Below, piece after piece: positions 1 to 22,360 of a stretch of DNA of 64,000 nt. Under the pieces are notes generated by a model, which was given only the letters and a program-made list of their open reading frames with translations, had not been told where the DNA came from and made no database searches. This stretch comes from Eledone cirrhosa (lineage: Eukaryota): assembly GCA_964016885.1 (NCBI GenBank), contig OZ024755.1:42408001-42472000 (forward strand). The letters are read 5' to 3'. The position numbers and the translations under genes were made by a program. Positions within the stretch are counted from its first letter, which is position 1; each line of letters starts with the position of its first letter.

Positions 1-585
1 AAATTTCAGGTCTGTTTGGGAACGGAGTTCAAAATTGACCAATGAAAATACAAAAAGTTTTATGCAGTTTGGTGTGTGTATATACATGTAACTAACCCCG
101 TACACATATTTATACAAAGATATATGCTCAACATGCATACGCATGCCAAAAAGATGTATGCAAATACAAAAAATTTAAGGCTAATGTCTCTGTAAGTTTA
201 TAATCCACAGATAAAATGCGTATAGACACATAAATATGAAATAAGTGTATACACATATTCTCATACTCACACATATCCATACACTCACACACACGCGCGC
301 GTATATGCATAAACATACACATAATTACGAACATACATACACACACACACCCCCACACACATATATATGTGGATATAATATTATCATAAGCACATGGATA
401 TTAATTCACTCACATAAACACTGCCACACACATCTAGATCAAGATACAGAAATTAGGTGGGAGGGGGGGAGAGGTCAGTATTCAACTGTTTGGGCAGACT
501 GCTTATTTATAGATGTATCTATAAACTTCGAAATAAAAAGAAAAGAAAAGAAAAAGAAAAAAGAAGAAAGAAGAAATATATCAAG

Positions 586-587
<2 letters not shown>

Positions 588-650
<63 letters not shown>

Positions 651-715
651 CTACACATACAACACACACACACACACATATATAAACATATACATATATA
701 TATATACACACATAT

Positions 716-756
<41 letters not shown>

Positions 757-1131
757 TACACATATATACACACACACATATATAGACACGCATATATATA
801 CACATACACGCACATATACATACACATACATACTTATATACATACAGACATACACATACATACATATATATACACACATATACATACAGACATACATACA
901 TACATACACACATACACACATACATACATACACATACATACTCATACATAGACATAGATATATATTCACCCACACATACGTACTTATATATACGCATATA
1001 TACAAATACTTACGCATCCATATATCGGTATATACATACAAAACACCACTACACTCTCACACAACTCAGACATACAAAGAAAAAGGTATATACATATACA
1101 CATATACACATACAAATAGAGATACATATAC

Positions 1132-1164
<33 letters not shown>

Positions 1165-1925
1165 CATACATATATACAAATACATACGCATCCATATATG
1201 CGTATATACATACAAACACCACTACACTCTCACACAACTCAGACATACAAAGAAAAAGGTATATACATATACATATATACACACATTAATAGAGATACAT
1301 ATACACATATATATATATATATACACATACATTTATATATATACCCACACACACATACAACCATAAACACACATACAAACACATACATACACACATATAT
1401 ATACATATATATACACACACACAAAAACACACATACACATATATATTTTTACACATACATATACATATATATACATATACACACCTCCACATATATACAT
1501 ATACACATAAGTTATATTATAATAATAAATAATATATATATATACACATACGAAAATATACATACACACATAGATATACATATTTATATACACACACACA
1601 CACACACACTCACATATATATGTGCGCACACGTACATATATACACATACACACATATACACATAAACATATACATGTGCATACATGTACATACACACATA
1701 TACCCACATAGATACGAAGATAGACATATATATAGAGAGACATACATATACATACACATATATACATAGACATACATACACACATATATATACACACAAC
1801 ATACACGCCCACACATATATACACATATACACACATATATATATATATATACACATATATATATACACATGCATATATACACATATATATATATACATAT
1901 ATATATACACACAATCATACATTCT
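588..1925. repeat. Compound (TA)n/(CA)n/(TACA)n microsatellite inside the PLE 3' region, with a ~175-bp internal tandem duplication (~1010-1300); mirrored at ~6620-7947
   Basis: Direct reading; ACACCACTACACTCTCACACAACTCAGACATACAAAGAAAAA occurs at ~1043 and ~1216. Confidence 0.9.
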
Positions 1926-3121
1926 TATTTGCATGCGCATATATGTATTTTATACTCAGATATAAACACCCAAACATATATACACCTACCTACATATATA
2001 TTCTTACATACACGCTTACAAACACAGATGATAATAGTATGGGGGAAAGGGGGGGTGGAGAAGGGGATTATAGTAAATATATGTTTCAAGAAACATAGAA
2101 TATTAATCTGTATTTGGATCTCAATATATGTTTTTACATAGTTTCAGTGTTAGGAAATGCAAGAAATAAGGCAAAATTATGCATTTCAAAATAAGTATAC
2201 CATTAATTATATGTTAACTAAACTAAAGAAAGTTAACATATTGATTTCTAAGGTGTAAATTAGTTAGGTTTATAATATTTGAAGCAGAATTTTGAAGTTA
2301 AATAGTAGTAGAGTATTAATTATAGTATAACTAAATTAAAGTTATTAACGTTATGGTATCAATATTAGGAAATGAATTTAGTAATAGGGAAAAAACAAAT
2401 AAAGTATTACATCGGTAGTAGAATATAAATTATAGGTTAACTAAATTAAAAATTATATATTAATTTCTATAGTATATGTTAATTAGGTATATAATAAATA
2501 AAACAGATATTGTATTTTATCAATAGCAGAATATAATTATATGCAAATAGAAATCAAAATTAATACATATACATATACATATACATACACATATATATAT
2601 ATATATATACACATATACATACATACATACACATACATATACATACATACATATACATATTTTTTCAAAAATTGCAAAGAATATATTAACTAGGTATACA
2701 TCCAAAACACATCCCATTCTATGATTACATGACACTCTGCAATCCGTCTGTATTAGGATACTAATTTTAAGCCAATTAAATTAATTTTTTAGGTTGACTA
2801 AATTTAAAACCAAATTATAAATATATTTCTAAAATGTATATTAATTAGGTCTATAATACTAAAAATTATTTCTCTGTCATTGGATACACGATATTTTGTT
2901 ATATTTTATCTGTAAAGGAATTTTAATAAAGGGTTAAATAAATTAAAATTAATCTATAAATTAAATTACTAAGTATATATTAGTAATATTTAAAGGTTTT
3001 TCACAATTTATGATTACACAATATTTTATATTCTCATCTGTAGTAGAATTTTAATTAAATTAAATTTATAGGTTAACTAACATTTAAATTAAATTATATA
3101 TTAATTTCTAAAATAATGTTA

Positions 3122-4267
3122 TTAATTAGGTTTATAATATTTAAATGTTTTTTTTAGTTTATGATTACACGATATAATTAATTCCTGTCGTTTATTTAAT
3201 AGGATATCCTTAGATTTCATTATTTCAAATAGTTCTTGGGAACATAATCTACATTCATTTCTATTATTTTGATAAGGGGTGGCTCTTTTGAGCACACTCC
3301 AGGTCAAATCATATTCTATATTCTTATTTTTATAACTATTGATTTTTTCTGCTAGAGATGTTGTATTAGCCAGTGCGGCATTTTTAAAACTATGCTTGTG
3401 GGTATTAAACCTTGTCTTAAAATTGTTAGAAGTAGCTCCTATATATGAGCAAATAGAATCTTTAGTTTTAACATTACATTTATAGACTATGTTGTTAACA
3501 AGACAATTCCCTTTTAATGGGCAGTTTGCTTTGTTTCTACAGTTACAACCTTTCGTTAATTCTGTATTTGAGGAGATATTATGGTTAATTTGATGTATTG
3601 GTGGTATACTTATGGTTTTCTTACATTTATATGCATTATAGGCACTTATATTTTGTTTTATGTTATTTGTTGTTGAGTATGAGAATTTAACTGTAGACCT
3701 ATTTAAGATTTGATGGTATTTGTGGTTTGGCGGGAAGTTTTTTTCTAGGATATAAAAAATTTTTTTAGCAATATTATCCTTAATTTGTAAATTAAATGGA
3801 GCATTATACCAAGTAACCCGTCTATTACGGTTTCTATGTTGTTTTTTATTTTTATTATTTTTATAGGTTGTATCGTGATTTTTACTAGGAGGATTAATGT
3901 TAATGATCTCACCACAACCATTTTTAGTTATATTTGTAGATTTAGGTGTTTTATCTTTTTTATTAGGAGTTTTATTATTAATATTTATTAGAGTTGTATG
4001 ATGAGTAGTTTTTTGAGAGTTACTATATTTTATATTAGAAGATTTGGTATTTTGGGGTATAGTGTGGGTGGCATTTAGGTGTGTACTTTTCATTTGGTGT
4101 TTGTTGGTAATATTAGGTTGTATGCTTTTAGTATTTTTAGTAGAAGGTATATATTCTAATCTATTTTTGTGGCCACTTCTATCTAGAGCTTCGTTATAGA
4201 AGGTCGCATTTTTATCAAATACATCTTGGTTAGAAGAAAGGTTAGAAATTCTAAGTGATATATTATA
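3122..4267 (-). CDS. Mirror copy of the Penelope-like GIY-YIG ORF fragment (annotated Met at 4093)
   Basis: 323-aa ORF identical to the + copy except three residues (SKNHD/SKHHD, NKNKKQ/NKNNKQ, KKIFY/KKFFY). Confidence 0.88.
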   Translation of the reverse strand, partial: YNISLRISNLSSNQDVFDKNATFYNEALDRSGHKNRLEYIPSTKNTKSIQPNITNKHQMKSTHLNATHTIPQNTKSSNIKYSNSQKTTHHTTLININNKTPNKKDKTPKSTNITKNGCGEIININPPSKNHDTTYKNNKNKKQHRNRNRRVTWYNAPFNLQIKDNIAKKIFYILEKNFPPNHKYHQILNRSTVKFSYSTTNNIKQNISAYNAYKCKKTISIPPIHQINHNISSNTELTKGCNCRNKANCPLKGNCLVNNIVYKCNVKTKDSICSYIGATSNNFKTRFNTHKHSFKNAALANTTSLAEKINSYKNKNIEYDLTWSVLKRATPYQNNRNECRLCSQELFEIMKSKDILLNKRQELIISCNHKLKKTFKYYKPN

Positions 4268-4274
4268 CCTTGCA

Positions 4275-5420
4275 TATAATATATCACTTAGAATTTCTAA
4301 CCTTTCTTCTAACCAAGATGTATTTGATAAAAATGCGACCTTCTATAACGAAGCTCTAGATAGAAGTGGCCACAAAAATAGATTAGAATATATACCTTCT
4401 ACTAAAAATACTAAAAGCATACAACCTAATATTACCAACAAACACCAAATGAAAAGTACACACCTAAATGCCACCCACACTATACCCCAAAATACCAAAT
4501 CTTCTAATATAAAATATAGTAACTCTCAAAAAACTACTCATCATACAACTCTAATAAATATTAATAATAAAACTCCTAATAAAAAAGATAAAACACCTAA
4601 ATCTACAAATATAACTAAAAATGGTTGTGGTGAGATCATTAACATTAATCCTCCTAGTAAACATCACGATACAACCTATAAAAATAATAAAAATAATAAA
4701 CAACATAGAAACCGTAATAGACGGGTTACTTGGTATAATGCTCCATTTAATTTACAAATTAAGGATAATATTGCTAAAAAATTTTTTTATATCCTAGAAA
4801 AAAACTTCCCGCCAAACCACAAATACCATCAAATCTTAAATAGGTCTACAGTTAAATTCTCATACTCAACAACAAATAACATAAAACAAAATATAAGTGC
4901 CTATAATGCATATAAATGTAAGAAAACCATAAGTATACCACCAATACATCAAATTAACCATAATATCTCCTCAAATACAGAATTAACGAAAGGTTGTAAC
5001 TGTAGAAACAAAGCAAACTGCCCATTAAAAGGGAATTGTCTTGTTAACAACATAGTCTATAAATGTAATGTTAAAACTAAAGATTCTATTTGCTCATATA
5101 TAGGAGCTACTTCTAACAATTTTAAGACAAGGTTTAATACCCACAAGCATAGTTTTAAAAATGCCGCACTGGCTAATACAACATCTCTAGCAGAAAAAAT
5201 CAATAGTTATAAAAATAAGAATATAGAATATGATTTGACCTGGAGTGTGCTCAAAAGAGCCACCCCTTATCAAAATAATAGAAATGAATGTAGATTATGT
5301 TCCCAAGAACTATTTGAAATAATGAAATCTAAGGATATCCTATTAAATAAACGACAGGAATTAATTATATCGTGTAATCATAAACTAAAAAAAACATTTA
5401 AATATTATAAACCTAATTAA
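4275..5420 (+). CDS. C-terminal fragment of a Penelope-like RT/GIY-YIG endonuclease polyprotein (annotated Met at 4449; frame is open back to the palindrome centre)
   Basis: In frame from 4275: YNISLRISNLSSNQDVFDKNATFYNEALDRSGH (PLE RT thumb-like); RNRRVTWYNAPF; CNCRNKANCPLKGNC (CxCx5Cx5C); NIVYKC...YIGAT...FKTRFNTH (GIY-YIG); CRLC..E; LLNKRQE..SCNH. Confidence 0.88.
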   Translation, partial: YNISLRISNLSSNQDVFDKNATFYNEALDRSGHKNRLEYIPSTKNTKSIQPNITNKHQMKSTHLNATHTIPQNTKSSNIKYSNSQKTTHHTTLININNKTPNKKDKTPKSTNITKNGCGEIININPPSKHHDTTYKNNKNNKQHRNRNRRVTWYNAPFNLQIKDNIAKKFFYILEKNFPPNHKYHQILNRSTVKFSYSTTNNIKQNISAYNAYKCKKTISIPPIHQINHNISSNTELTKGCNCRNKANCPLKGNCLVNNIVYKCNVKTKDSICSYIGATSNNFKTRFNTHKHSFKNAALANTTSLAEKINSYKNKNIEYDLTWSVLKRATPYQNNRNECRLCSQELFEIMKSKDILLNKRQELIISCNHKLKKTFKYYKPN

Positions 5421-5922
5421 TAACATTATTTTAGAAATTAATATATAATTTAATTTAAATGTTAGTTAACCTATAAATTTAATTTAATTAAAATTCTACT
5501 ACAGATGAGAATATAAAATATTGTGTAATCATAAATTGTGAAAAACCTTTAAATATTACTAATATATACTTAGTAATTTAATTTATAGATTAATTTTAAT
5601 TTATTTAACCCTTTATTAAAATTCCTTTACAGATAAAATATAACAAAATATCGTGTATCCAATGACAGAGAAATAATTTTTAGTATTATAGACCTAATTA
5701 ATATACATTTTAGAAATATATTTATAATTTGGTTTTAAATTTAGTCAACCTAAAAATTTAATTTAATTGGCTTAAAATTAGTATCCTAATACAGACGGAT
5801 TGCAGAGTGTCATGTAATCATAGAATGGGATGTGTTTTGGATGTATACCTAGTTAATATATTCTTTGCAATTTTTGAAAAAATATGTATATGTATGTATG
5901 TATATGTATGTGTATGTATGTA

Positions 5923-5953
<31 letters not shown>

Positions 5954-5956
5954 GTG

Positions 5957-5987
<31 letters not shown>

Positions 5988-6340
5988 TAATTTTGATTTC
6001 TATTTGCATATAATTATATTCTGCTATTGATAAAATACAATATCTGTTTTATTTATTATATACCTAATTAACATATACTATAGAAATTAATATATAATTT
6101 TTAATTTAGTTAACCTATAATTTATATTCTACTACCGATGTAATACTTTATTTGTTTTTTCCCTATTACTAAATTCATTTCCTAATATTGATACCATAAC
6201 GTTAATAACTTTAATTTAGTTATACTATAATTAATACTCTACTACTATTTAACTTCAAAATTCTGCTTCAAATATTATAAACCTAACTAATTTACACCTT
6301 AGAAATCAATATGTTAACTTTCTTTAGTTTAGTTAACATA
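5365..6340 (+). repeat. Degenerate AT-rich tandem reiterations of the ORF 3' end in the PLE 3' UTR (mirror ~2200-3180)
   Basis: GTGTAATCATAAA-like motif at ~5372, 5523, 5653, 5813; TTATAnACCTAATTAA...TAGAAAT-like motif at ~5405, 5686, 6056, 6275. Confidence 0.65.
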
Positions 6341-7390
6341 TAATTAATGGTATACTTATTTTGAAATGCATAATTTTGCCTTATTTCTTGCATTTCCTAA
6401 CACTGAAACTATGTAAAAACATATATTGAGATCCAAATACAGATTAATATTCTATGTTTCTTGAAACATATATTTACTATAATCCCCTTCTCCACCCCCC
6501 TTTCCCCCATACTATTATCATCTGTGTTTGTAAGCGTGTATGTAAGAATATATATGTAGGTAGGTGTATATATGTTTGGGTGTTTATATCTGAATATAAA
6601 ATACATATATGCGCATGCAAATAAGAATGTATGATTGTGTGTATATATATATGTATATATATATATGTGTATATATGCATGTGTATATATATGTACATAT
6701 ATATATATATATGTGTGTATATGTGTATATATGTGTGGGCGTGTATGTTGTGTGTATATATATATATATATGTGTGTATGTATGTCTATGTATATATGTG
6801 TATGTATATGTATGTCTCTCTATATATATGTCTATCTTCGTATCTATGTGGGTATATGTGTGTATGTACATGTATGCACATGTATATGTTTATGTGTATA
6901 TGTGTGTATGTGTATATATGTACGTGTGCGCACATATATATGTGAGTGTGTGTGTGTGTGTGTATATAAAAATATGTATATCTATGTGTGTATGTATATT
7001 TTCGTATGTGTATATATATATATTATTTATTATTATAATATAACTTATGTGTATATGTATATATGTGGAGGTGTGTATATGTATATATATGTATATGTAT
7101 GTGTAAAAATATATATGTGTATGTGTGTTTTTGTGTGTGTGTATATATATGTATATATATGTGTGTATGTATGTGTTTGTATGTGTGTTTATGGTTGTAT
7201 GTGTGTGTGGGTATATATATAAATGTATGTGTATATATATATATATATGTGTATATGTATCTCTATTAATGTGTGTATATATGTATATGTATATACCTTT
7301 TTCTTTGTATGTCTGAGTTGTGTGAGAGTGTAGTGGTGTTTGTATGTATATACGCATATATGGATGCGTATGTATTTGTATATATGTATG

Positions 7391-7423
<33 letters not shown>

Positions 7424-7800
7424 GTATATGTATCTCTATTTGTATGTGTATATGTGTATATGTATATACCTTTTTCTTTGTATGTCTGAGTTGTGTGAGA
7501 GTGTAGTGGTGTTTTGTATGTATATACCGATATATGGATGCGTAAGTATTTGTATATATGCGTATATATAAGTACGTATGTGTGGGTGAATATATATCTA
7601 TGTCTATGTATGAGTATGTATGTGTATATGTATGTATGTGTGTATGTGTGTATGTATGTATGTATGTCTGTATGTATATGTGTGTATATATATGTATGTA
7701 TGTGTATGTCTGTATGTATATAAGTATGTATGTGTATGTATATGTGCGTGTATGTGTATATATATGCGTGTCTATATATGTGTGTGTGTATATATGTGTA

Positions 7801-7841
<41 letters not shown>

Positions 7842-7915
7842 ATATGTGTGTATATATATATATGTATATGTTTATATATGTGTGTGTGTGTGTGTTGTAT
7901 GTGTAGATGTGTGTA

Positions 7916-7947
<32 letters not shown>

Positions 7948-7948
<1 letters not shown>

Positions 7949-8667
7949 TAACTACTTTTCCCATCTTGACGTTATAGTCGCATATATGTTATAGAATGCC
8001 GTTAGCTTCTTGCTAAAACAATCTCTATACGTCTCATTTATATTTATACTCGGATTCTTTTCCTAGAGTGCTTAAACTATCTGTGACTAATCCCGGTTTT
8101 TTTTTTCATAAAAACTGTGATAATTATTGCTATTTTGCTGAACTCCTTGTAGAGTTTTTTTCAGAATGTATTTGACTGCTATTTCTTGTAAATAAACATT
8201 CACTTCCATCCTGACGTCACTAGCCCCGTTTTTTCCTCATGTGCTTTTTCATAAATACACATGAAGGCGAACTAGCCAGTTTTAGAATTCCCTTTTTCGG
8301 ACTATATTACTGTGAGAGCCCTGGTTTTCTGTTGAGCTCTGCTGATGAATGATATTCCAACCGTGACCATCTCCACTGAAAGTTTTCATGAAATAGTCTT
8401 TTAAGACTATACAGAGCATTTGATGTTATTCCAAATTGAAGGATAAGTGTTTCAAACTTTGTTTTATCATGAGTTAAAGGTCTATAGATTTTTCCATGGA
8501 TTTTACTAAATTCTGTGGATGAATTTGTATCCTGATTCTCTTTTGAGATGAGTTTGAGTTATTTTTCCTAAATCTTTCGTTAACTACTTTTCCCATCTTG
8601 ACGTTATAGTCGCATATATGTTATAGAATGCCGTTAGCTTCTTGCTAAAACAATCTCTATACGTCTC

Positions 8668-8675
<8 letters not shown>
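7948..8675 (+). mobile_element. Non-autonomous retrozyme-like element: 632-bp unit plus ~95-bp terminal direct repeat, containing a type I HHR, inserted in (TA)n
   Basis: TTAACTACTTTTCCCATCTTGACG...GTCTCATTTATAT at 7948-8043 and again at 8580-8675; no ORF; absent from the equivalent (TA)n tract (588-642) of the left arm. Confidence 0.82.
8336..8417 (+). ncRNA. Type I hammerhead ribozyme
   Basis: Stem I GCTCTG/CAGAGC; core CTGATGA (8342-8348); stem II ATGA/TCAT with a 33-nt loop; GAAA (8390-8393); stem III TAGTCTT-tt-AAGACTA; cleavage triplet AUA (cut after 8411). Confidence 0.9.
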
Positions 8676-8706
<31 letters not shown>

Positions 8707-9317
8707 CTTGATATATTTCTTCTTTCTTCTTTTTTCTTTTTCTTTTCTTTTCTTTTTATTTCGAAGTTTATAGATACATCTATAAATAAGCAGTCTGCCC
8801 AAACAGTTGAATACTGACCTCTCCCCCCCCCACCTAATTTCTGTATCTTGATCTAGATGTGTGTGGCAGTGTTTATGTGAGTGAATTAATATCCATGTGC
8901 TTATGATAATATTATATCCACATATATATGTGTGTGGGGTGTGTGTGTGTATGTATGTTCGTAATTATGTGTATGTTTATGCATATACGCACGCGTGTGT
9001 GTGAGTGTATGGATATGTGTGAGTATGAGAATATGTGTATACACTTATTTCATATTTATGTGTCTATACGCATTTTATCTGTGGATTATAAACTTACAGA
9101 GACATTAGCCTTAAATTTTTTGTATTTGCATACATATTTTTGGCATGCGTATGCATGTTGAGCATATATCTTTGTATAAATATGTGTACGGGGTTAGTTA
9201 CATGTATATACACACACCAAACTGCATAAAACTTTTTGTATTTTCATTGGTCAATTTTGAACTCCGTTCCCAAACAGACCTGAAATTTTGAATTGTTGTT
9301 ATTATCAATAAATATAT

Positions 9318-9472
9318 TTCATTATTTCTGAAGACGGCATATATGTGTGTTTGGTATGTATATTTAATCTTGATAGTTTGTATAATTTTGTATAATTTTG
9401 TACATAGATCTGTTGAATGTGCATGCCAATTCTAACACATATATATCCTAGAAACGATCGTTAAATAATGAA
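9318..9472 (+). ncRNA. Type I hammerhead ribozyme with greatly extended stem II (PLE pLTR)
   Basis: Stem I TTCATTATTT/AAATAATGAA (10 bp); core CTGAAGA (9328-9334); stem II GG.ATATATGTGTGTT/AACACATATATAT.CC continued by TGGTATGTA/TGCATGCCA; GAAA (9451-9454); palindromic stem III AACGATCGTT; GUU cleavage triplet. Confidence 0.82.
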
Positions 9473-9669
9473 CTTTTTTTGTTTAATATAAGGAACTGTT
9501 TCATTGTTTTATTCATTATTTGTTTAATATTTTATCTTGACTCTGTATTCCGTTTATCTTTCACCGAAAGTGATTTTTCATTACATCTCTTCTTTCCATG
9601 ATATCCGGAATACATTGAGTTCTTCATACGGATTGGACACTACCGTAAACTCTTGGTAGATTTATCTAC

Positions 9670-10309: not shown

Positions 10310-11155
10310 GTAAATATGATAATAATGGAGCTGCGGCGTTGCAAATGGGTTACATATAAAAAAGTGAGTCCTTCATCAGTGACCCTCCAACCGTCCTAGC
10401 ATTTCATCGCTTTAAGGGCCATATACCTCAGGTTGGTGCGAACAACGGCTAAAAAAAGTCGTTGGGACACGTAAATAAAGAGAACGTTAGGGTGAACAAA
10501 CAAAATGGTTTAAGCAACAGAAAGTGAGAGGAAAGAGACAAGTCCCAGATTTCTATGAATATAAACTCGATAAAATCGTGAACTAGAGAATAAAGACCAT
10601 CAGACCTGGTTGAAATGTGAGCAAGGAAGGAATTTCGCACAGGTCTAACGGGAGGAAGAAGAAGGGGTCTGGTCTGCGAATTCGGTAAACATAAGTTCTG
10701 TGAAGACGCAGACGAGAGAGAGAGAGAAAAAAAATTCATACCGGCTTGGCCAAGAGTGCGCGAGAAAAGAAATCGGACAGGTCAAGCGGGAAGAAAGAGG
10801 AGTGGAGGAGAGGTAGTGACAGGGTATGAGTGAGTGAAAGTTGAGGAAGAGGACAGAGAGAGAGACTGCTAGAAAGGGTAAAGATACAAAGAACGAAACA
10901 GACGGGTGGCAGCAGAGGAAAAAATATATGTGTAAATATGATAATAATGGAGCTGCGGCGTTGCAAATGGGTTACATATAAAAAAAGTGAGTCCTTCATC
11001 AGTGACCCTCCAACCGTCCTAGGCATTTCATCGCTTTAAGGGCCATATACCTCAGGTTGGTGCGAACAACGGCTAAAAAAAGTCGTTGGGACACGTAAAT
11101 AAAGAGAGCGTTAGGGTGAACAAACAAAATGGTTTAAGCAACAGAAAGTGAGAGG
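10310..11155. mobile_element. Non-coding element: ~622-bp unit with ~223-bp terminal direct repeats, inserted in (TA)n
   Basis: GTAAATATGATAATAATGGAGCTGCGGCG...CAGAAAGTGAGAGGA at 10310-10532 and 10932-11155 with only a few differences; purine-rich interior; no credible ORF. Confidence 0.75.
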
Positions 11156-13549
<2,394 letters not shown>

Positions 13550-14921: not shown

Positions 14922-17900
14922 ATGGCCGCCGCTGACACCAGACCAGGTGTCATACCGACAGCCATTACTGGCACCCCAAAAGTCACACCAGTGCTGCTGC
15001 TGAATGTCAGGGGCCTGGTGAAACTCAGCAACATGAGTAAAATTTCCTACCTGGGAGACTTAGCCATAAGCAATCAAGCACTATGCATGGCACTAACCGA
15101 AACGCACCTGACAAGCAGTATAGCAGATGCAGAAATACATATACCGAAATATACTGTATTTCGTTCGGACAGGAAGGAGAGAACTCATGGTGGGGTTGCT
15201 CTGTATATCCGTGAAGATGTCACACCAATTGTACTGTTGACACATTCAAACTCAGTCTGTGACACACTGATAATACATATGAAGCAACTACAGACGGTAA
15301 TATGTGTCACATATCGGCCGCCCGATGACCCCAGTATTGAGGGTAAATTTGAGGATAGCCTAAGTAGGATAGAAGAAGTCCTTGACAAACTGGACCAGGG
15401 TCTCAACATCCTACTGCTGGGAGACTTCAACCTACCAAAGGTCAAATGGCCTGAGGGCCACCTCCTCCCTGGAATGACGTCAATAGAACAGAGACAGACG
15501 GAATCCCTGCTGGCCCTCACACACAGGCTGTTCATGGAGCAAGCAATACTCCTCCCAACAAGAGGCGAAAATGTCCTGGACCTCTGTTTTACAAACAACG
15601 AAGTGCTCATCCACAATGTAAAGGTGACACCAACAATTCTCTCGGATCATAACTTGGTAGAGCTAATGATATGTGGTCCAAGAGAACCAACAGAGACAAA
15701 ACCACCAAGAAGCTCCGGGACGCTATCCAGCCTTAACTTCTACGGGGCTGACTGGAAGAAGATTAAGAGTGAAATCCGGAAGCAAACATGGAGTGCAAAC
15801 ATCGCCACACAAGACACTAACACACAATTTCAACACTTCATGACAACGATACACACCATATGCAAAAAGTGTGTCCCGGAGAAAGAGGCAAACAGACACA
15901 AAAATCTTATTCCCAGAGATAGGAAAATCCTTATGAGACGTAGAACTAAACTCTCAAACCAGTTGAATAGTCAACAAAACCAAAACAAGAAGGAATCCTA
16001 TTTGAAACGTGCACTACTTGACACCGAGATTGCACTCAAGCTTTCACATGAGAATGAGAGGGCAAGGAAAGAGAACAGGGCCATAGAAAACATTAAAACA
16101 AACCCTAAGGCCTTCTTTAAATTTGCAAAAGAAACTGCCTCAGTACACTGCAAGATTGGACCACTCTTCCACACGGACGGTTCATTAACCGAAAATCCCC
16201 AAGAGATATGTGAAATACTGAACGAACAGTACAAAAGTGTCTTCACATGTCCACTGAGGCACATGCAAATAACGAAGCCAGAGGAGTTCTTTGATGCCAC
16301 AACACTACATCAAGAAATGGCAACCATCAACCACATAGACATAACGGAGGAGGATGTGGTGTACGCCATTGATGAAATTAGAACAGACTCGGCTGCTGGA
16401 CCTGATGGATTCCCAGCAGTTCTCCTAAAAATATGTAAGCGGGCCTTAGCAACTCCACTGAAGATGCTCTTCAGAAGCTCCTTGGCTAGCGGTGTACTAC
16501 CCAGGGAGCTGAAAGAAGGCACAATATGCCCTATCCATAAAGGAGGTAGTAGAGCGGAGGCCAAGAACTATAGGCCAGTCTCCCTGACGTCGCATATCAG
16601 TAAGGTCATGGAGCGAGTTGTCAGAAAGAAACTAATCACTTTCCTCGAAGAAAATGACCGCCTGACTAGCACGCAACATGGCTTCCGCCCAGGAAGAAGC
16701 TGCCTTACACAGCTGCTACATCACTACGACTGGGTACTGAGACAGCTACTAGACAGCTCACTTGTAGACGTGATATATCTTGACTTTGCGAAGGCCTTTG
16801 ACAAGGTCGACCACGGAATGATATGTCACAAACTACACGGACTCGGCATAACTGGAAAAGTAGGTGAGTGGCTGCATGGCTTCCTGAGGGACAGAAGCCA
16901 GGCAGTCGCAGCAAATGGGGCCCTCTCGAGGGAGACACCGATAACAAGTGGGGTGCCTCAGGGGACAGTCCTGGGACCACTACTGTTTTTGGTGGCTCTC
17001 TCGGACATGCCCTCTGTGGTGCAAGCAACAACATCCCTCACTAGCTTTGCTGATGACACTAAGGTAGCACAGGCAATCAAAAACCCGGCTGACGCTGCCC
17101 TCTTACAGCAGGATCTGGATGCCATATACAGATGGGCGGAAGAAAACAACATGCAGTTTAATGCTGGCAAATTCCAAGCCCTACAATACAAACCTGCAAA
17201 CACAAACACAAATATAGCGGAACGCAGCTACACAGGACCAGGAGGGACCGATATCCCCGTGTCAAAATCGATACGAGACCTGGGCATAGACATGAGCGAT
17301 GATGCATCTTTTTCTTCACACATCATGAAGGTGGCGACAGCATGTAGACGATTCGCTGGCTGGATCTTGAGGACTTTCCTTACAAGAGATCGAGACACCA
17401 TGTTGACACTGTGGAGGACTTTTGTCCTAAGCCGCCTGGACTACTGCTCCCAGCTGTGGTCACCCCATAGTGTCAAACTAACCACAGAGCTTGAGGCAAT
17501 CCAGCGAAGCTACACCAAGAGGATTGCCAAGATGAGGGAGACAAGCTACTGGGAGAGGCTGAAGGAACTGAACCTCTACTCCTTGGAGCGAAGACGGGAG
17601 AGATACGCAGTGATCTACATGTGGAAAATCCTGGAGGGACTAGCACCAAACTTTGGCATTGGGAGCTGGACCAACTGTAGAACAGGACGTCACTGTGTGG
17701 TGCCAAAGGTCCCGTCTTCCACATCTAGAATAAGGAGCAGGTATTGCAATAGCCTGGGATTCAAGGGCCCTCAACTCTTCAACAGGCTGCCGAGGCATCT
17801 GCGAGACTTGCATGACGTGGAGGTGGATGTCTTTAAGAAACATCTCGACACCTTGTTATCCAGGATCCCGGATGAGCCCACAGCAAGACACGAGGGAAAC

Positions 17901-17963
17901 CTAAGGGCAGCAGCAACAAACTCCCTCCTACACCAGTGGCCAACCTGTACAGGCTGGAGATAA
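14922..17963 (+). CDS. LINE ORF2: apurinic-like endonuclease + reverse transcriptase (1013 aa; the first 298 aa of the 1311-aa track ORF are translated microsatellite)
   Basis: EN motifs LNVRGL, TETHL, GGVALY, YRPP, GDFN, PTR..N.LDL, SDH; RT motifs [58 protein letters not shown]; C-terminal [10 protein letters not shown]; no stops or frameshifts. Confidence 0.96.
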
Positions 17964-18046
17964 AATGTGTAGCAACAAGGGCGGTGCCCCAGCATGGCCT
18001 CAGCCGGATGGCTGAAACAGGTAAAGAGTAAAAGAGTAAAAGAGTA
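14922..18046 (+). mobile_element. Non-LTR retrotransposon (LINE, probably CR1/L2 group), ORF2 plus short 3' UTR, no ORF1
   Basis: APE-RT ORF; 3' UTR hairpin TCAGCC-ggat-GGCTGA (18000-18015) and short tandem tail (GTAAAAGA)n at ~18021-18046; flanked by (TA)n on both sides. Clade assignment is tentative. Confidence 0.92.
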
Positions 18047-18056
18047 TGTATATATG

Positions 18057-18090
<34 letters not shown>

Positions 18091-18102
18091 TATGTATATA
18101 TG

Positions 18103-18167
<65 letters not shown>

Positions 18168-18186
18168 GTATATATATGTATATATG

Positions 18187-18219
<33 letters not shown>

Positions 18220-18305
18220 GTATATATATGTATATATGTATATATATATAATGTATATATGTATATATGTATATATATGTATATATGTATATATGTATAT
18301 ATATA

Positions 18306-18350
<45 letters not shown>

Positions 18351-18363
18351 ATATGTATATATA

Positions 18364-18419
<56 letters not shown>

Positions 18420-18534
18420 ATATTTATAATGTATATATATATATATGTATATATGTATATTGTATATATATATATATGTATATATGTATATATGTATATA
18501 TATATATATGTATATATGTATATATGTATATATG

Positions 18535-18569
<35 letters not shown>

Positions 18570-18837
18570 GTATATATGTATATATATGTATATATGTATA
18601 TATGTATATATGTATATATATATATGTATATATGTATATATATATATGTATATATGTATATATATATATGTATATATATATATATTTAATATGTGTGTAT
18701 ATATATATGTAATATGTGTATATATATATATGTATATATGTATATATATATATGTAATATGTATATATATATATATGTAATATGTATATATATATATATA
18801 TATGTAATATGTATATATATATATATGTAATATGTAT

Positions 18838-18871
<34 letters not shown>

Positions 18872-19683
18872 GTATATTTATATATATGTATATATATATA
18901 TGTATATATATATATATTATATATGTATATTTATATATATGTATATATATATATGTATATGTATGTATATATATATATGTATGTATTATATATATGTATA
19001 TATATATATGTATGTATTATATATATGTATATATATATATATATATGTATGTATAATATATATGTATATATATACGTGTATGTATATATATATATGTGTA
19101 TATATGTGTATGCTATATATATGTATATATATATATGTATTATATATATATGTATATATATATGTATTTATATATATATGTATATATATATGTATTTATA
19201 TATATATGTATATATATGTATTTATATTATATGTATATATATATATGTATATGTATATATATGTATATGTATATATATAATGTATATATATGTATATGTT
19301 ATATATATATATGTATATATATGTATATGTATATATATATATGTATATATATGTATATTATATGTATATATATGTATATATATTGTATATATATATATAT
19401 ATATGTATATATATGTATTTATATGTATATATATGTATATATATGTATATATATGTATATATGTATATATATATATATGTATATATATGTATATATATGT
19501 ATATATATATATATGTATATATATGTATATATATGTATATATATATATATATGTATATATATGTATATATATGTATATATATGTATATATATGTATATAT
19601 ATGTATATATATATGTATATATATATATATATGTATATATATGTATATATATGTATATATATGTATATATATATATAAATATG

Positions 19684-19715
<32 letters not shown>

Positions 19716-19826
19716 TGTATATATATGTATATATATATGTATATATGTATATATATATGTATATATATATATATATATGTATATAATATATATATATGTA
19801 TATATATTATATATGTATGTATATAT

Positions 19827-19921
<95 letters not shown>

Positions 19922-19962
19922 ATATATATATATATGTATGTATATATATATATGTATGTATG

Positions 19963-20026
<64 letters not shown>

Positions 20027-20108
20027 TATATGTATGTATGTATATATATATGTATGTATGTATATATATATATGTATGTATATATATGTGTATATATATA
20101 TATGTATG

Positions 20109-20141
<33 letters not shown>

Positions 20142-20265
20142 GTATGTATATGTATGTATGTATATATGTATGTATATGTATGTATATATATGTATGTATG
20201 TATATATATATATCGTGTATGTATATATATGTATGTATATATATATATGTGTATGTATATATATG

Positions 20266-20298
<33 letters not shown>

Positions 20299-20310
20299 AT
20301 GTATGTATAT

Positions 20311-20387
<77 letters not shown>

Positions 20388-20419
20388 TAATATAAGTATG
20401 TATATGTATGTATGTATAT

Positions 20420-20453
<34 letters not shown>

Positions 20454-20458
20454 GTATT

Positions 20459-20489
<31 letters not shown>

Positions 20490-20528
20490 TGTATATATAT
20501 GTATGTATAATATATGTATGTATATATT

Positions 20529-20562
<34 letters not shown>

Positions 20563-20733
20563 GTATATATGTATATATGTATATATATGTATATATGTAT
20601 ATATATGTATATATGTATATATATGTATATATGTATATATGTATATATATGTATATATGTATATGTATATATATGTATATATATATATGTATATATGTAT
20701 ATATATATATATATATGTATATTATTATATATG

Positions 20734-20790
<57 letters not shown>

Positions 20791-20941
20791 GTATAAATGT
20801 ATATGTATATATGTATATATATATATATGTATATAATATATATGTGTATATATGTATATGTATATATGTATATATATATATATGTATATATGTATATATA
20901 TATATATGTATATATATATATACATGTATATATATATATAT

Positions 20942-20972
<31 letters not shown>

Positions 20973-21112
20973 GTATATATGTATATATATATATATATAT
21001 ATGTATATATAATGTATATATATATATATACGTATATGTATATATGATATGTATATATATACTATATATGTATGTATATGTATATATGTATAATATATAT
21101 ATATGTATATAA
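18047..21112. repeat. ~3 kb (TA)n/(TATG)n compound microsatellite
   Basis: Direct reading. Confidence 0.97.
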
Positions 21113-21177
21113 AGGACGTAAATAAGAAAATATTTTTTTTAAAAAATTTAAAAAAATTTTTTTCTACTTAAATTTTC

Positions 21178-21260
21178 ACTCCAACTAATTAGTTTCTGCA
21201 ATGGGATAAAGGACAGTTACGTAATCCAACTGTCGAGAATTCATTGCGTCATCAGGAAGT
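21178..21260 (-). ncRNA. Type I hammerhead ribozyme (mirror copy)
   Basis: Reverse complement of 22011-22092 with one extra base in the stem II extension. Confidence 0.82.
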
Positions 21261-22010
21261 CTATTCTCAGTTAAGTCTCCAGGCAATGCGCGGACACTGG
21301 CGGCTCATATAAAAATAATAATAATTCGGTAGATCGAACAGCTTGCGAGGACTGGAATCTATGTACCGAAATTCTCACTGCTTCAAGTCAAATGGCCGAT
21401 TCTAAAGAATCAATCACGTGACACAGAGGCTAGTTAGAAGGAATGGGATGGTAAGATGACTGACGCCTACTAACACCCCAAAAAAATTTTTTTAGAAGTG
21501 GTTTTGACAAGTTTGCTCGACAAATCAGTGATTTGGAGATAAATATAGATAATTTAATATATCAACTAACATAAGCGCACAGATGCACGCCCATTGCCAG
21601 CAAATACACAATTGTTCTGCATTCTCCTGCATTGAACCACCTAGGTACTATGACATAACCTGTGTATTTGCTGGCATGGGCGTGCATCTGTGCGCTTATG
21701 TTAGTTGATATATTAAATTATCTATATTTATCTCCAAATCACTGATTTGTCGAGCAAACTTGTCAAAACCACTTCTAAAAAAATTTTTTTTGGGGTGTTA
21801 GTAGGCGTCAGTCATCTTACCATCCCATTCCTTCTAACTAGCCTCTGTGTCACGTGATTGATTCTTTAGAATCGGCCATTTGACTTGAAGCAGTGAGAAT
21901 TTCGGTACATAGATTCCAGTCCTCGCAAGCTGTTCGATCTACCGAATTATTATTATTTTTATATGAGCCGCCAGTGTCCGCGCATTGCCTGGAGACTTAA
22001 CTGAGAATAG

Positions 22011-22092
22011 ACTTCCTGATGACGCAATGAATTCTCGACAGTTGGATTACGTAACTGTCTTTATCCCATTGCAGAAACTAATTAGTTGGAGT
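22011..22092 (+). ncRNA. Type I hammerhead ribozyme with extended stem II
   Basis: Stem I ACTTC/GGAGT; core CTGATGA (22016-22022); C.A mismatch then GCAATG/CATTGC and distal GACAGTT/AACTGTC; GAAA (22074-22077); palindromic stem III AACTAATTAGTT; GUU cleavage triplet. Confidence 0.85.
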
Positions 22093-22159
22093 GAAAATTT
22101 AAGTAAGAAAAAAATTTTTTTTAAATTTTAAAAAAAAATATTTTCTTATTTTACGTCCT

Positions 22160-22294
22160 ATATATGTATATATGTATATGTATATATATATATATGTATA
22201 TATGTATATGTATATGTATATATGTATATATATATATATATGTATATATGTATATATATATATATGGATATATATATATATATGTATATATGTA

Positions 22295-22339
<45 letters not shown>

Positions 22340-22360
22340 ATATATGTATATATGTATATA
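22160..22360. repeat. (TA)n/(TATG)n microsatellite running into the gap
   Basis: Direct reading. Confidence 0.95.

What the first reader, a model, noticed from the sequence alone, without database searches (positions are those of the whole stretch)
21113..22159. 1-kb foldback with outward-facing hammerheads: the same geometry as the giant palindrome in miniature
Seen: ~500-bp arms, 50-nt spacer, HHR ~65 nt from each outer end, no ORF. The flanking microsatellite has the same TATG polarity on both sides, so the inversion is limited to the insert. Inference: a discrete unit that looks like a MITE/foldback DNA transposon but is made of two PLE 3' ends. Two independent cases within 22 kb suggest that symmetric insertion, with both ends primed at a self-complementary (TA)n target, is a regular outcome for these elements. 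Read-through would produce long hairpin dsRNA trimmed by a ribozyme.
Basis: partly seen in the sequence, partly recalled or inferred. Interest (0 to 1): 0.75.

Follow-up and report, generated by a model that had tools for sequence, protein, structure and literature searches.

The report
Two-armed hammerhead retrozyme insertion
This 1-kb mirror repeat is one copy of a 557-base non-coding repeat that carries a predicted self-cutting RNA motif and sits in TA microsatellites at hundreds of places; its back-to-back copies almost always start from two different fixed points of the unit, which suggests that a Penelope-type enzyme likely copies one RNA from both sides of a DNA cut.

Summary
The foldback is real as assembled: arms of 498 and 499 bp, 50-nt spacer, outward-facing type I hammerheads, no ORF. 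It is neither a MITE nor two PLE 3' ends. It is two arms of a 557-bp tandem hammerhead monomer (non-LTR retrozyme type, at least 1,333 motif copies). The spacer is monomer sequence kept in one arm only. Insertions are not symmetric: of 97 resolved inverted loci, 95 end at site A on one side and at site B (about 120 nt further on) on the other; none is B+B. The window is one of two A+A exceptions. Both arms share locus-specific variants, and 14 of 95 centres fall in the same register, always within one monomer of equal extent. An autonomous Hydra-type PLE in the window has the same A+B layout and hammerhead variant but no DNA similarity. Best reading: both target strands prime cDNA on one RNA, possibly a circle. 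Inverted copies, a one-sided tail and two RT start sites are published for PLEs; the scan noted the same pattern for other monomer families in this genome and elsewhere. No reads span the window junction, and no RNA evidence was found.

The parts
21113..21610 (-). Left arm: monomer positions 53-557, RNA sense on the minus strand, outer end at site A joined to TA/TATG microsatellite
   Evidence: BLAST against a natural monomer from L024; alignment
21611..22159 (+). Right arm: monomer positions 3 to about 555, nearly one whole monomer, outer end at site A but two T short of the usual end
21611..21660 (+). The 50-nt 'spacer': monomer positions 3-52, present in the right arm only; blunt inversion junction at 21610/21611
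22011..22092 (+). Type I hammerhead motif; core from 22016, long stem II, palindromic stem III, predicted cut after 22087 (GUU triplet)
   Evidence: motif positions, stem II covariation; cleavage not tested
21178..21260 (-). Mirror copy of the hammerhead motif; predicted cut after 21183
21661..21714 (+). Hairpin just 5' of site B, inside the A-to-B tail
   Evidence: fold z -4.0 for 21660-21782; same hairpin folds in 10 diverged copies
21713..21726 (+). Site B (internal here; the other outer end in A+B insertions); mirror copy begins at 21557 on the minus strand
18045..21112 (.). TA/TATG microsatellite, left target flank
22160..22360 (.). TA/TATG microsatellite, right target flank, same polarity, followed by a 200-N gap
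1..9668 (.). Comparison object: 5'-inverted insertion of an autonomous Hydra-type PLE; centre at 4271, B end at 9668, A end about 247 nt upstream of the window start; candidate source of the enzyme

Best explanation
This is an inverted insertion of a 557-bp non-coding tandem monomer with a type I hammerhead motif, likely written into a TA microsatellite by a Penelope-type enzyme that would prime DNA synthesis from both cut strands on one RNA template. Shown: the monomer, its tandem arrays, the TA target, two fixed end sites A and B about 120 nt apart, their near-strict pairing in inverted copies, shared variants across both arms, excess same-register centres, and short microhomology at junctions. 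Inferred: the enzyme nicks both strands; each TA end pairs with the UAUA at A or at B on either side of the tail hairpin; the two cDNAs copy overlapping parts of the same RNA (strand displacement would be needed) and are joined at their 3' ends. A circular monomer as template is plausible (about 45%) but an uncut linear multimer fits too. The window copy is a rare A+A product: either both ends primed at A of successive monomers (its right arm stops 2 nt from the next A), or a B tail was lost later or in assembly.
For: Family: 1,333 exact A-motif matches, 0 in the reversed control; 291 A-type and 609 B-type exact outer ends. Ends: 95 A+B, 2 A+A, 0 B+B, 6 unresolved among 103 inverted loci; non-inverted loci end at A (37) or B (28), 2 cut off, of 67. 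In the position-ordered scan of contig C1, 22 of 22 inverted loci are A+B while non-inverted split 9 A to 6 B (0.48^22 is about 1e-7, my arithmetic). 251 of 265 outer ends abut TA runs. One template: full monomers differ by 0.34 substitutions within an arm, 0.59 between arms, 2.53 between loci (299 monomers, 106 loci); variants seen in one locus only run through all covering monomers of both arms in L093, L115, L142; both window arms share 306T, seen in one other sampled locus. Phased variants in L154 and L165 put the A start directly 5' of the B tail. Same-register centres within 3 nt: 10 of 82, permuted mean 1.5, p 5e-5; 14 of 95 within 12 nt, all within one monomer of equal extent versus 47% of other loci, p 2.5e-5. 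Junction microhomology of 2 nt or more in 28 of 52 non-insertion junctions versus 18% by chance. The autonomous PLE shows A+B in 7 of 8 resolved inverted loci, tail 133 nt, hammerhead cut 72 nt before A (78 in the monomer). In vitro a PLE protein nicks and extends both strands, has two RT start sites bracketing the tail and is predicted to dimerise (PMC11167929).
Against: No DNA similarity between the monomer and the PLE stretches tested, so the partner is not identified; a search for a closer PLE found only older retrozyme subfamilies. Loci where neither arm contains the other are fewer than independence predicts (15 versus 23.2, P 0.016), which leaves room for snap-back in some. 12 of 59 variant patterns spanning both arms are mixed. 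Homogeneity could come from homogeneous source arrays, gene conversion or assembly polishing. Only 9 of 86 B arms stop before the adjacent A, so the model needs displacement synthesis that nobody has shown. PMC11167929 saw no difference in start site between strands and no homology at the start site for its element. Most loci were picked by an end pattern, and A-picked loci cannot show B+B. No RNA evidence; no read spans the window junction.
Confidence: 0.7

Rival explanations
1. Snap-back: one cDNA (or an antisense RNA) folds back and copies itself, giving a perfect palindrome; asymmetric centres arise by loop-out or later deletion.
For: Excess of same-register centres; shared variants are expected; self-priming was proposed for Penelope palindromes (PMC3846280); non-contained loci are depleted.
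Against: 15 of 95 loci have neither arm inside the other, many at 98-100% identity to the reference, for example L052, L111, L145; phased variants in L154 and L096 cannot be copied from the longer arm as it now stands; the second arm would have to end at the other site type whichever came first; long near-perfect palindromes persist in this genome (1,701-nt arms, 7-nt spacer).
Confidence: 0.15
2. Two separate RNA molecules, one per subunit of an enzyme dimer, give the two arms.
For: Explains overlapping arms without strand displacement; arm lengths are not significantly correlated (rho 0.16, p 0.12); 12 mixed variant patterns.
Against: Arms share variants far more than loci do (26 of 79 versus 2 of 2,600 for variants in 3 loci or fewer); same-register centres are scattered over the monomer, not at one fixed 5' end.
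Confidence: 0.08
3. MITE or foldback DNA transposon that moves as a fixed unit.
For: Inverted arms, no ORF, TA target.
Against: No second copy with this layout among 103 inverted loci; arm length and centre vary; 67 loci are one-armed and 5'-truncated; tandem multimers up to 12 units.
Confidence: 0.01
4. The window copy is an assembly artefact at a contig end.
For: About 200 bp from an N gap; no spanning read; rare A+A type and rare right end (16 matches genome-wide, most inside two loci).
Against: Flanks are not mirrored; the arms differ in extent by 50 nt of genuine monomer; about 100 other loci show two-armed layouts, including a second A+A with regular ends (L267). At most the right end is suspect.
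Confidence: 0.06

Closest known systems
Metazoan non-LTR retrozymes (Cervera and de la Pena 2020, PMC7229834, passages; Li, Clavereau and Pollet 2026, 10.64898/2026.07.22.740005, part 1 of 5 and passages)
   Same: Non-coding, low-GC tandem monomers, one type I hammerhead each, dimers to multimers, co-occurring with PLEs.
   Different: 557 nt against the reported 150-450 bp. The passages seen describe no inverted arms, fixed end sites or TA target for retrozymes. RNA circles and cleavage were not shown here.
Insertion layout of endonuclease-bearing PLEs (Craig et al. 2021, PMC8557442, passages and section 11; Arkhipova et al. 2013, PMC3846280, passages)
   Same: Inverted 5'-truncated copy, head-to-head, tail at one end only, palindromes at the junction, microsatellite targets.
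   Different: Element is non-coding; tail about 120 nt against 30-40; the one-sided tail is near-strict (95 of 97) rather than 'often' or 'optional'.
Poseidon PAc in vitro (Frangieh et al. 2024, PMC11167929, passages and section 3 part 2)
   Same: Two internal RT start sites bracketing the tail; both strands nicked and extended; hammerhead cleavage not required.
   Different: No strand difference in start site and no homology at the start site were reported there; here both sites end in TATA matching the target and are used one per end.
L1 twin priming (mechanism recalled; search listing only)
   Same: Two target ends prime on one RNA; inversion junction with microhomology.
   Different: In L1 the two pieces barely overlap and the second site is variable (recalled). 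Here both sites are fixed and the arms overlap by hundreds of bases.
Hydra clade of PLEs (PMC8557442 section 11), for the autonomous element in the window
   Same: C-terminal endonuclease, DKT, CxCX5C linker, CxxC and CxH motifs, hammerhead, TA insertions, read by eye from P0002.
   Different: Unit 6.67 kb against generally under 3 kb; RWR in place of RWK; no tree was built.

Membership tests
Non-LTR retrozyme | Tandem monomers of a few hundred bp without ORF | tested here: met
   557-bp period, arrays to 12 units, no ORF; longer than the reported 150-450 bp
Non-LTR retrozyme | One type I hammerhead motif per monomer | tested here: met
   core motif and stem II covariation in 23 sequences; Rfam models do not hit it; stem I pair 1 and stem III were fixed by my search pattern and are uninformative
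Non-LTR retrozyme | Self-cleavage of the RNA | not testable with these tools
   GUU triplet and unpaired C/A at the base of stem II; inner ends at the cut site 7 of 216 versus 1.9 under a uniform null, weak because ends are denser in that region
Non-LTR retrozyme | Expression as linear and circular RNA | tested here: inconclusive
   0 contigs laid from four RNA-type runs of other organism labels; circular fold z -4.5 on 40 shuffles
Non-LTR retrozyme | Co-occurring autonomous PLE | tested here: met
   many intact 830-aa frames; sequence link to the monomer not found
PLE-type insertion | Inverted 5'-truncated copy, head-to-head | tested here: met
   103 of 170 loci examined
PLE-type insertion | Tail at one end only | tested here: met
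   95 of 97 resolved loci; not met by the window copy itself (A+A)
PLE-type insertion | Target-site duplication of variable length | not tested
   targets are TA arrays; no duplication search was run
MITE or foldback DNA transposon | Fixed length and fixed terminal inverted repeats across copies | tested here: not met
MITE or foldback DNA transposon | Transposase partner sharing the termini | not tested
   no transposase search was run
PLE 3' end (pLTR fragment) | Sequence shared with an autonomous PLE | tested here: inconclusive
   only short low-complexity matches to the window PLE and 30 PLE loci; one further PLE family lay in the stretch compared; other families not examined
L1-type twin priming | First cDNA stops where the second primer sits (arms abut, no overlap) | tested here: not met
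   9 of 86 B arms at or under 125 nt; inner ends at positions 2-14 not enriched, 5 versus 5.0; the window copy alone fits

The most novel reading that the evidence does not exclude
A Hydra-type PLE dimer loads one circular retrozyme RNA, primes both target strands at two dedicated sites either side of the tail hairpin, and the two polymerases chase each other round the circle with strand displacement; a break in the circle stops both at the same register within one lap. Tandem arrays, the inverted copy and the one-sided tail of PLEs would then be products of one reaction.
Probability: 0.4. Interest if true: 0.75.

Novelty: new variant of a known kind. Interest (0 to 1): 0.5.

Why it matters
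Craig et al. (PMC8557442) list the origin of tandem and inverted PLE structures as open, and retrozyme circles are proposed but not shown to be the templates for insertion. Short non-coding monomers in hundreds of young copies record both start sites, the template identity and the junction of each event. They turn these questions into a direct test with one enzyme, one 557-nt RNA and a TA target. The locus itself is an ordinary, slightly atypical member of the family.

Tried and rejected
Rfam scans gave only microsatellite and hairpin noise. Pfam did not recognise the PLE protein; its homolog search gave mostly unnamed proteins, so the Hydra label rests on motifs read by eye against PMC8557442. 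Search for a PLE sharing the monomer's stem III found older retrozyme subfamilies only (30 of 256 matches examined). Reads: no contig or read spanned the window junction; four RNA-type runs of small share gave nothing, which is no evidence of silence. Enrichment of inner ends at site A was tested and not found; at the hammerhead cut it is weak. MITE, PLE 3' ends and strict L1 twin priming were rejected as above. Rows dropped before counts: the second, duplicated copy in L105; clusters under 28 nt; loci L001-L030 except L029 (refetched in part as larger stretches); only L221 entered the counts; the register test left out the window, junctions split at a monomer boundary and one with a long insert (82 of 93); 61 of 103 junctions could be resolved exactly, 9 of them with inserted bases. 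L267 was fetched because its coordinates suggested A+A. Literature: six searches found no paper reporting a strict A+B rule or two-armed retrozyme insertions; the library lacks most subscription papers, Arkhipova 2006 and Evgen'ev and Arkhipova 2005 were not read, and no supplements were opened (those of PMC11167929 Fig. S2 and PMC7229834 may bear on this).

Full report
Observation. The insert lies in a TA/TATG microsatellite about 200 bp from a 200-N gap. Arms 21113-21610 and 21661-22159 align with 493 matches, 3 mismatched and 6 gap columns, around a 50-nt spacer. Each arm carries a hammerhead core pointing outward; there is no ORF of 60 aa. Flank polarity is kept on both sides. Rfam does not hit the motif, but 22 diverged relatives plus the window copy keep the core and show paired changes in stem II (130 of 138 cells Watson-Crick, shuffled maximum 121).

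What it is. A search of the 3.0-Gb genome showed the arm as part of head-to-tail arrays with a 557-bp period. An exact end motif occurs 1,333 times. The spacer is monomer positions 3-52, so the right arm is almost one whole monomer and the left arm is positions 53-557. Relatives about 70-90% identical keep the hammerhead, both end sites and a hairpin before site B. Runs under several organism labels hold related sequence. This matches a non-LTR retrozyme in anatomy; cleavage and circular RNA are untested.

Ends. Copies end at two fixed sites that both finish in TATA: A (monomer end) and B (about 120 nt further on). Exact outer-end patterns give 291 A and 609 B (the patterns differ in tolerance to older subfamilies, so the ratio is not interpreted). 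Of 170 loci parsed, 103 are inverted head-to-head: 95 A+B, 2 A+A, 0 B+B, 6 unresolved; 67 are one-armed: 37 A, 28 B, 2 cut off. Most loci were chosen by an end pattern. The least biased set, a position-ordered scan of C1, gave 22 of 22 A+B, and by inspection none of the 93 B ends listed on C1 faces another within 10 kb. Its right end is also two T short, a form with 16 matches genome-wide, so a lost B tail or an assembly fault at that end remains possible; a second A+A locus with regular ends exists (L267).

Template. Monomers of one locus are alike across both arms (0.59 substitutions against 2.53 between loci). Locus-specific variants run through both arms, including 306T in the window and two variants in all eight segments of L267. 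Of 59 variant patterns spanning both arms 47 are uniform and 12 mixed; three mixed ones are phased: L154 and L165 place the A start directly 5' of the B tail, L096 one monomer later. Centres in the same register are in excess (10 of 82 within 3 nt, p 5e-5), scattered over the monomer, and all 14 within 12 nt differ in extent by no more than one monomer. Junctions show microhomology of 2 nt or more in 28 of 52 cases against 18% by chance. In 15 of 95 loci neither arm contains the other, which one self-copying cDNA cannot give without later deletion; the number is below the 23 expected from independent arms.

Partner. The large palindrome at the window start is an inverted insertion of an autonomous PLE: 6.67-kb unit, 830-aa frame, many intact copies, with the motifs that PMC8557442 gives for the TA-targeting Hydra clade (read by eye, no tree). 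It has an A end about 247 nt upstream of the window and a B end at 9668; 7 of 8 resolved inverted PLE loci are A+B, one looks A+A, two were unresolved. Its hammerhead has the same extra C and A at the base of stem II, a palindromic stem III and a GUU triplet, 72 nt before A against 78 in the monomer. There is no DNA similarity to the monomer, so it is a candidate only.

Mechanism. Most likely both target strands are nicked and each primes cDNA on the same RNA, one at A and one at B; the cDNAs overlap, stop, and are joined through short homology. This builds on published in vitro work showing two-strand extension, two start sites around the tail and a predicted dimer (PMC11167929). Displacement synthesis and a circular template are inferred. 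Rivals are snap-back with later central loss (PMC3846280), two RNAs per dimer, a MITE, and an artefact.

Known and new. Retrozymes, their link to PLEs, inverted copies, the one-sided tail and two start sites are in print. Six searches found no report of the strict pairing, the shared-template evidence or two-armed retrozyme insertions. Papers were seen as passages or named sections only, never whole, and no supplements. Earlier notes of this scan describe the same pattern for 310- and 591/592-nt families in this genome and for other genomes; I read them after forming this view, did not check them, and do not count them as support.

Verdict. A real, ordinary-sized copy of a retrozyme-type family; the family's insertion footprint is the interesting part. 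New variant of a known kind, interest 0.5.

Noticed in passing
monomer position 409 (window 22017 on +); L036, L055, L089, L127, L150, L157, L163: Seven independent arms stop exactly at the second base of the hammerhead core (7 of 216 inner ends, 11 within 407-411), mostly with blunt junctions. Unexplained: a defined RNA 5' end or an RT stop.
   Followed up: partly
window 7949-8667: Extra segment in the right arm of the PLE palindrome only: a unit of about 633 bp plus a partial repeat, ending in TA, with a hammerhead-like core at 8342. Likely another one-armed retrozyme-type insertion.
   Followed up: no
window 10310-11157: Tandem partial duplication with a period of about 620 bp inside the TA array, with CTGATGA on the minus strand at 10379 and 11002 but no downstream GAAA match in my pattern.
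   Followed up: no
window 14925-17963: Open 1,012-aa frame with AP endonuclease and RT domains, a LINE inserted in the TA array.
   Followed up: partly
window 22561-64000: 44-bp satellite, about 954 copies, 94% matches, right after the gap.
   Followed up: no
L151:7000-8950 (upstream of the window): 3' part of what looks like a second PLE family by eye, also ending in TA; related sequence flanks L036.
   Followed up: no
P0002 residues about 490-600: Low-complexity N/T/K-rich stretch between RT and endonuclease, recalling the N-rich inserts of rotifer Penelope elements (PMC3846280).
   Followed up: no
L105:603-1550 and 2637-3584: The same inverted insertion twice, 2 kb apart: a local duplication or an assembly repeat.
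   Followed up: no
L224-L232 (G000:C5:84831122-84835326): All nine monomers of both arms share a changed A site, and the locus is still B on one side and A on the other.
   Followed up: partly
monomer positions 41-60: 13 of 216 inner ends fall near the 5' base of the tail hairpin, against 7 in each neighbouring bin; the window's left arm stops at 53. Not tested further.
   Followed up: no
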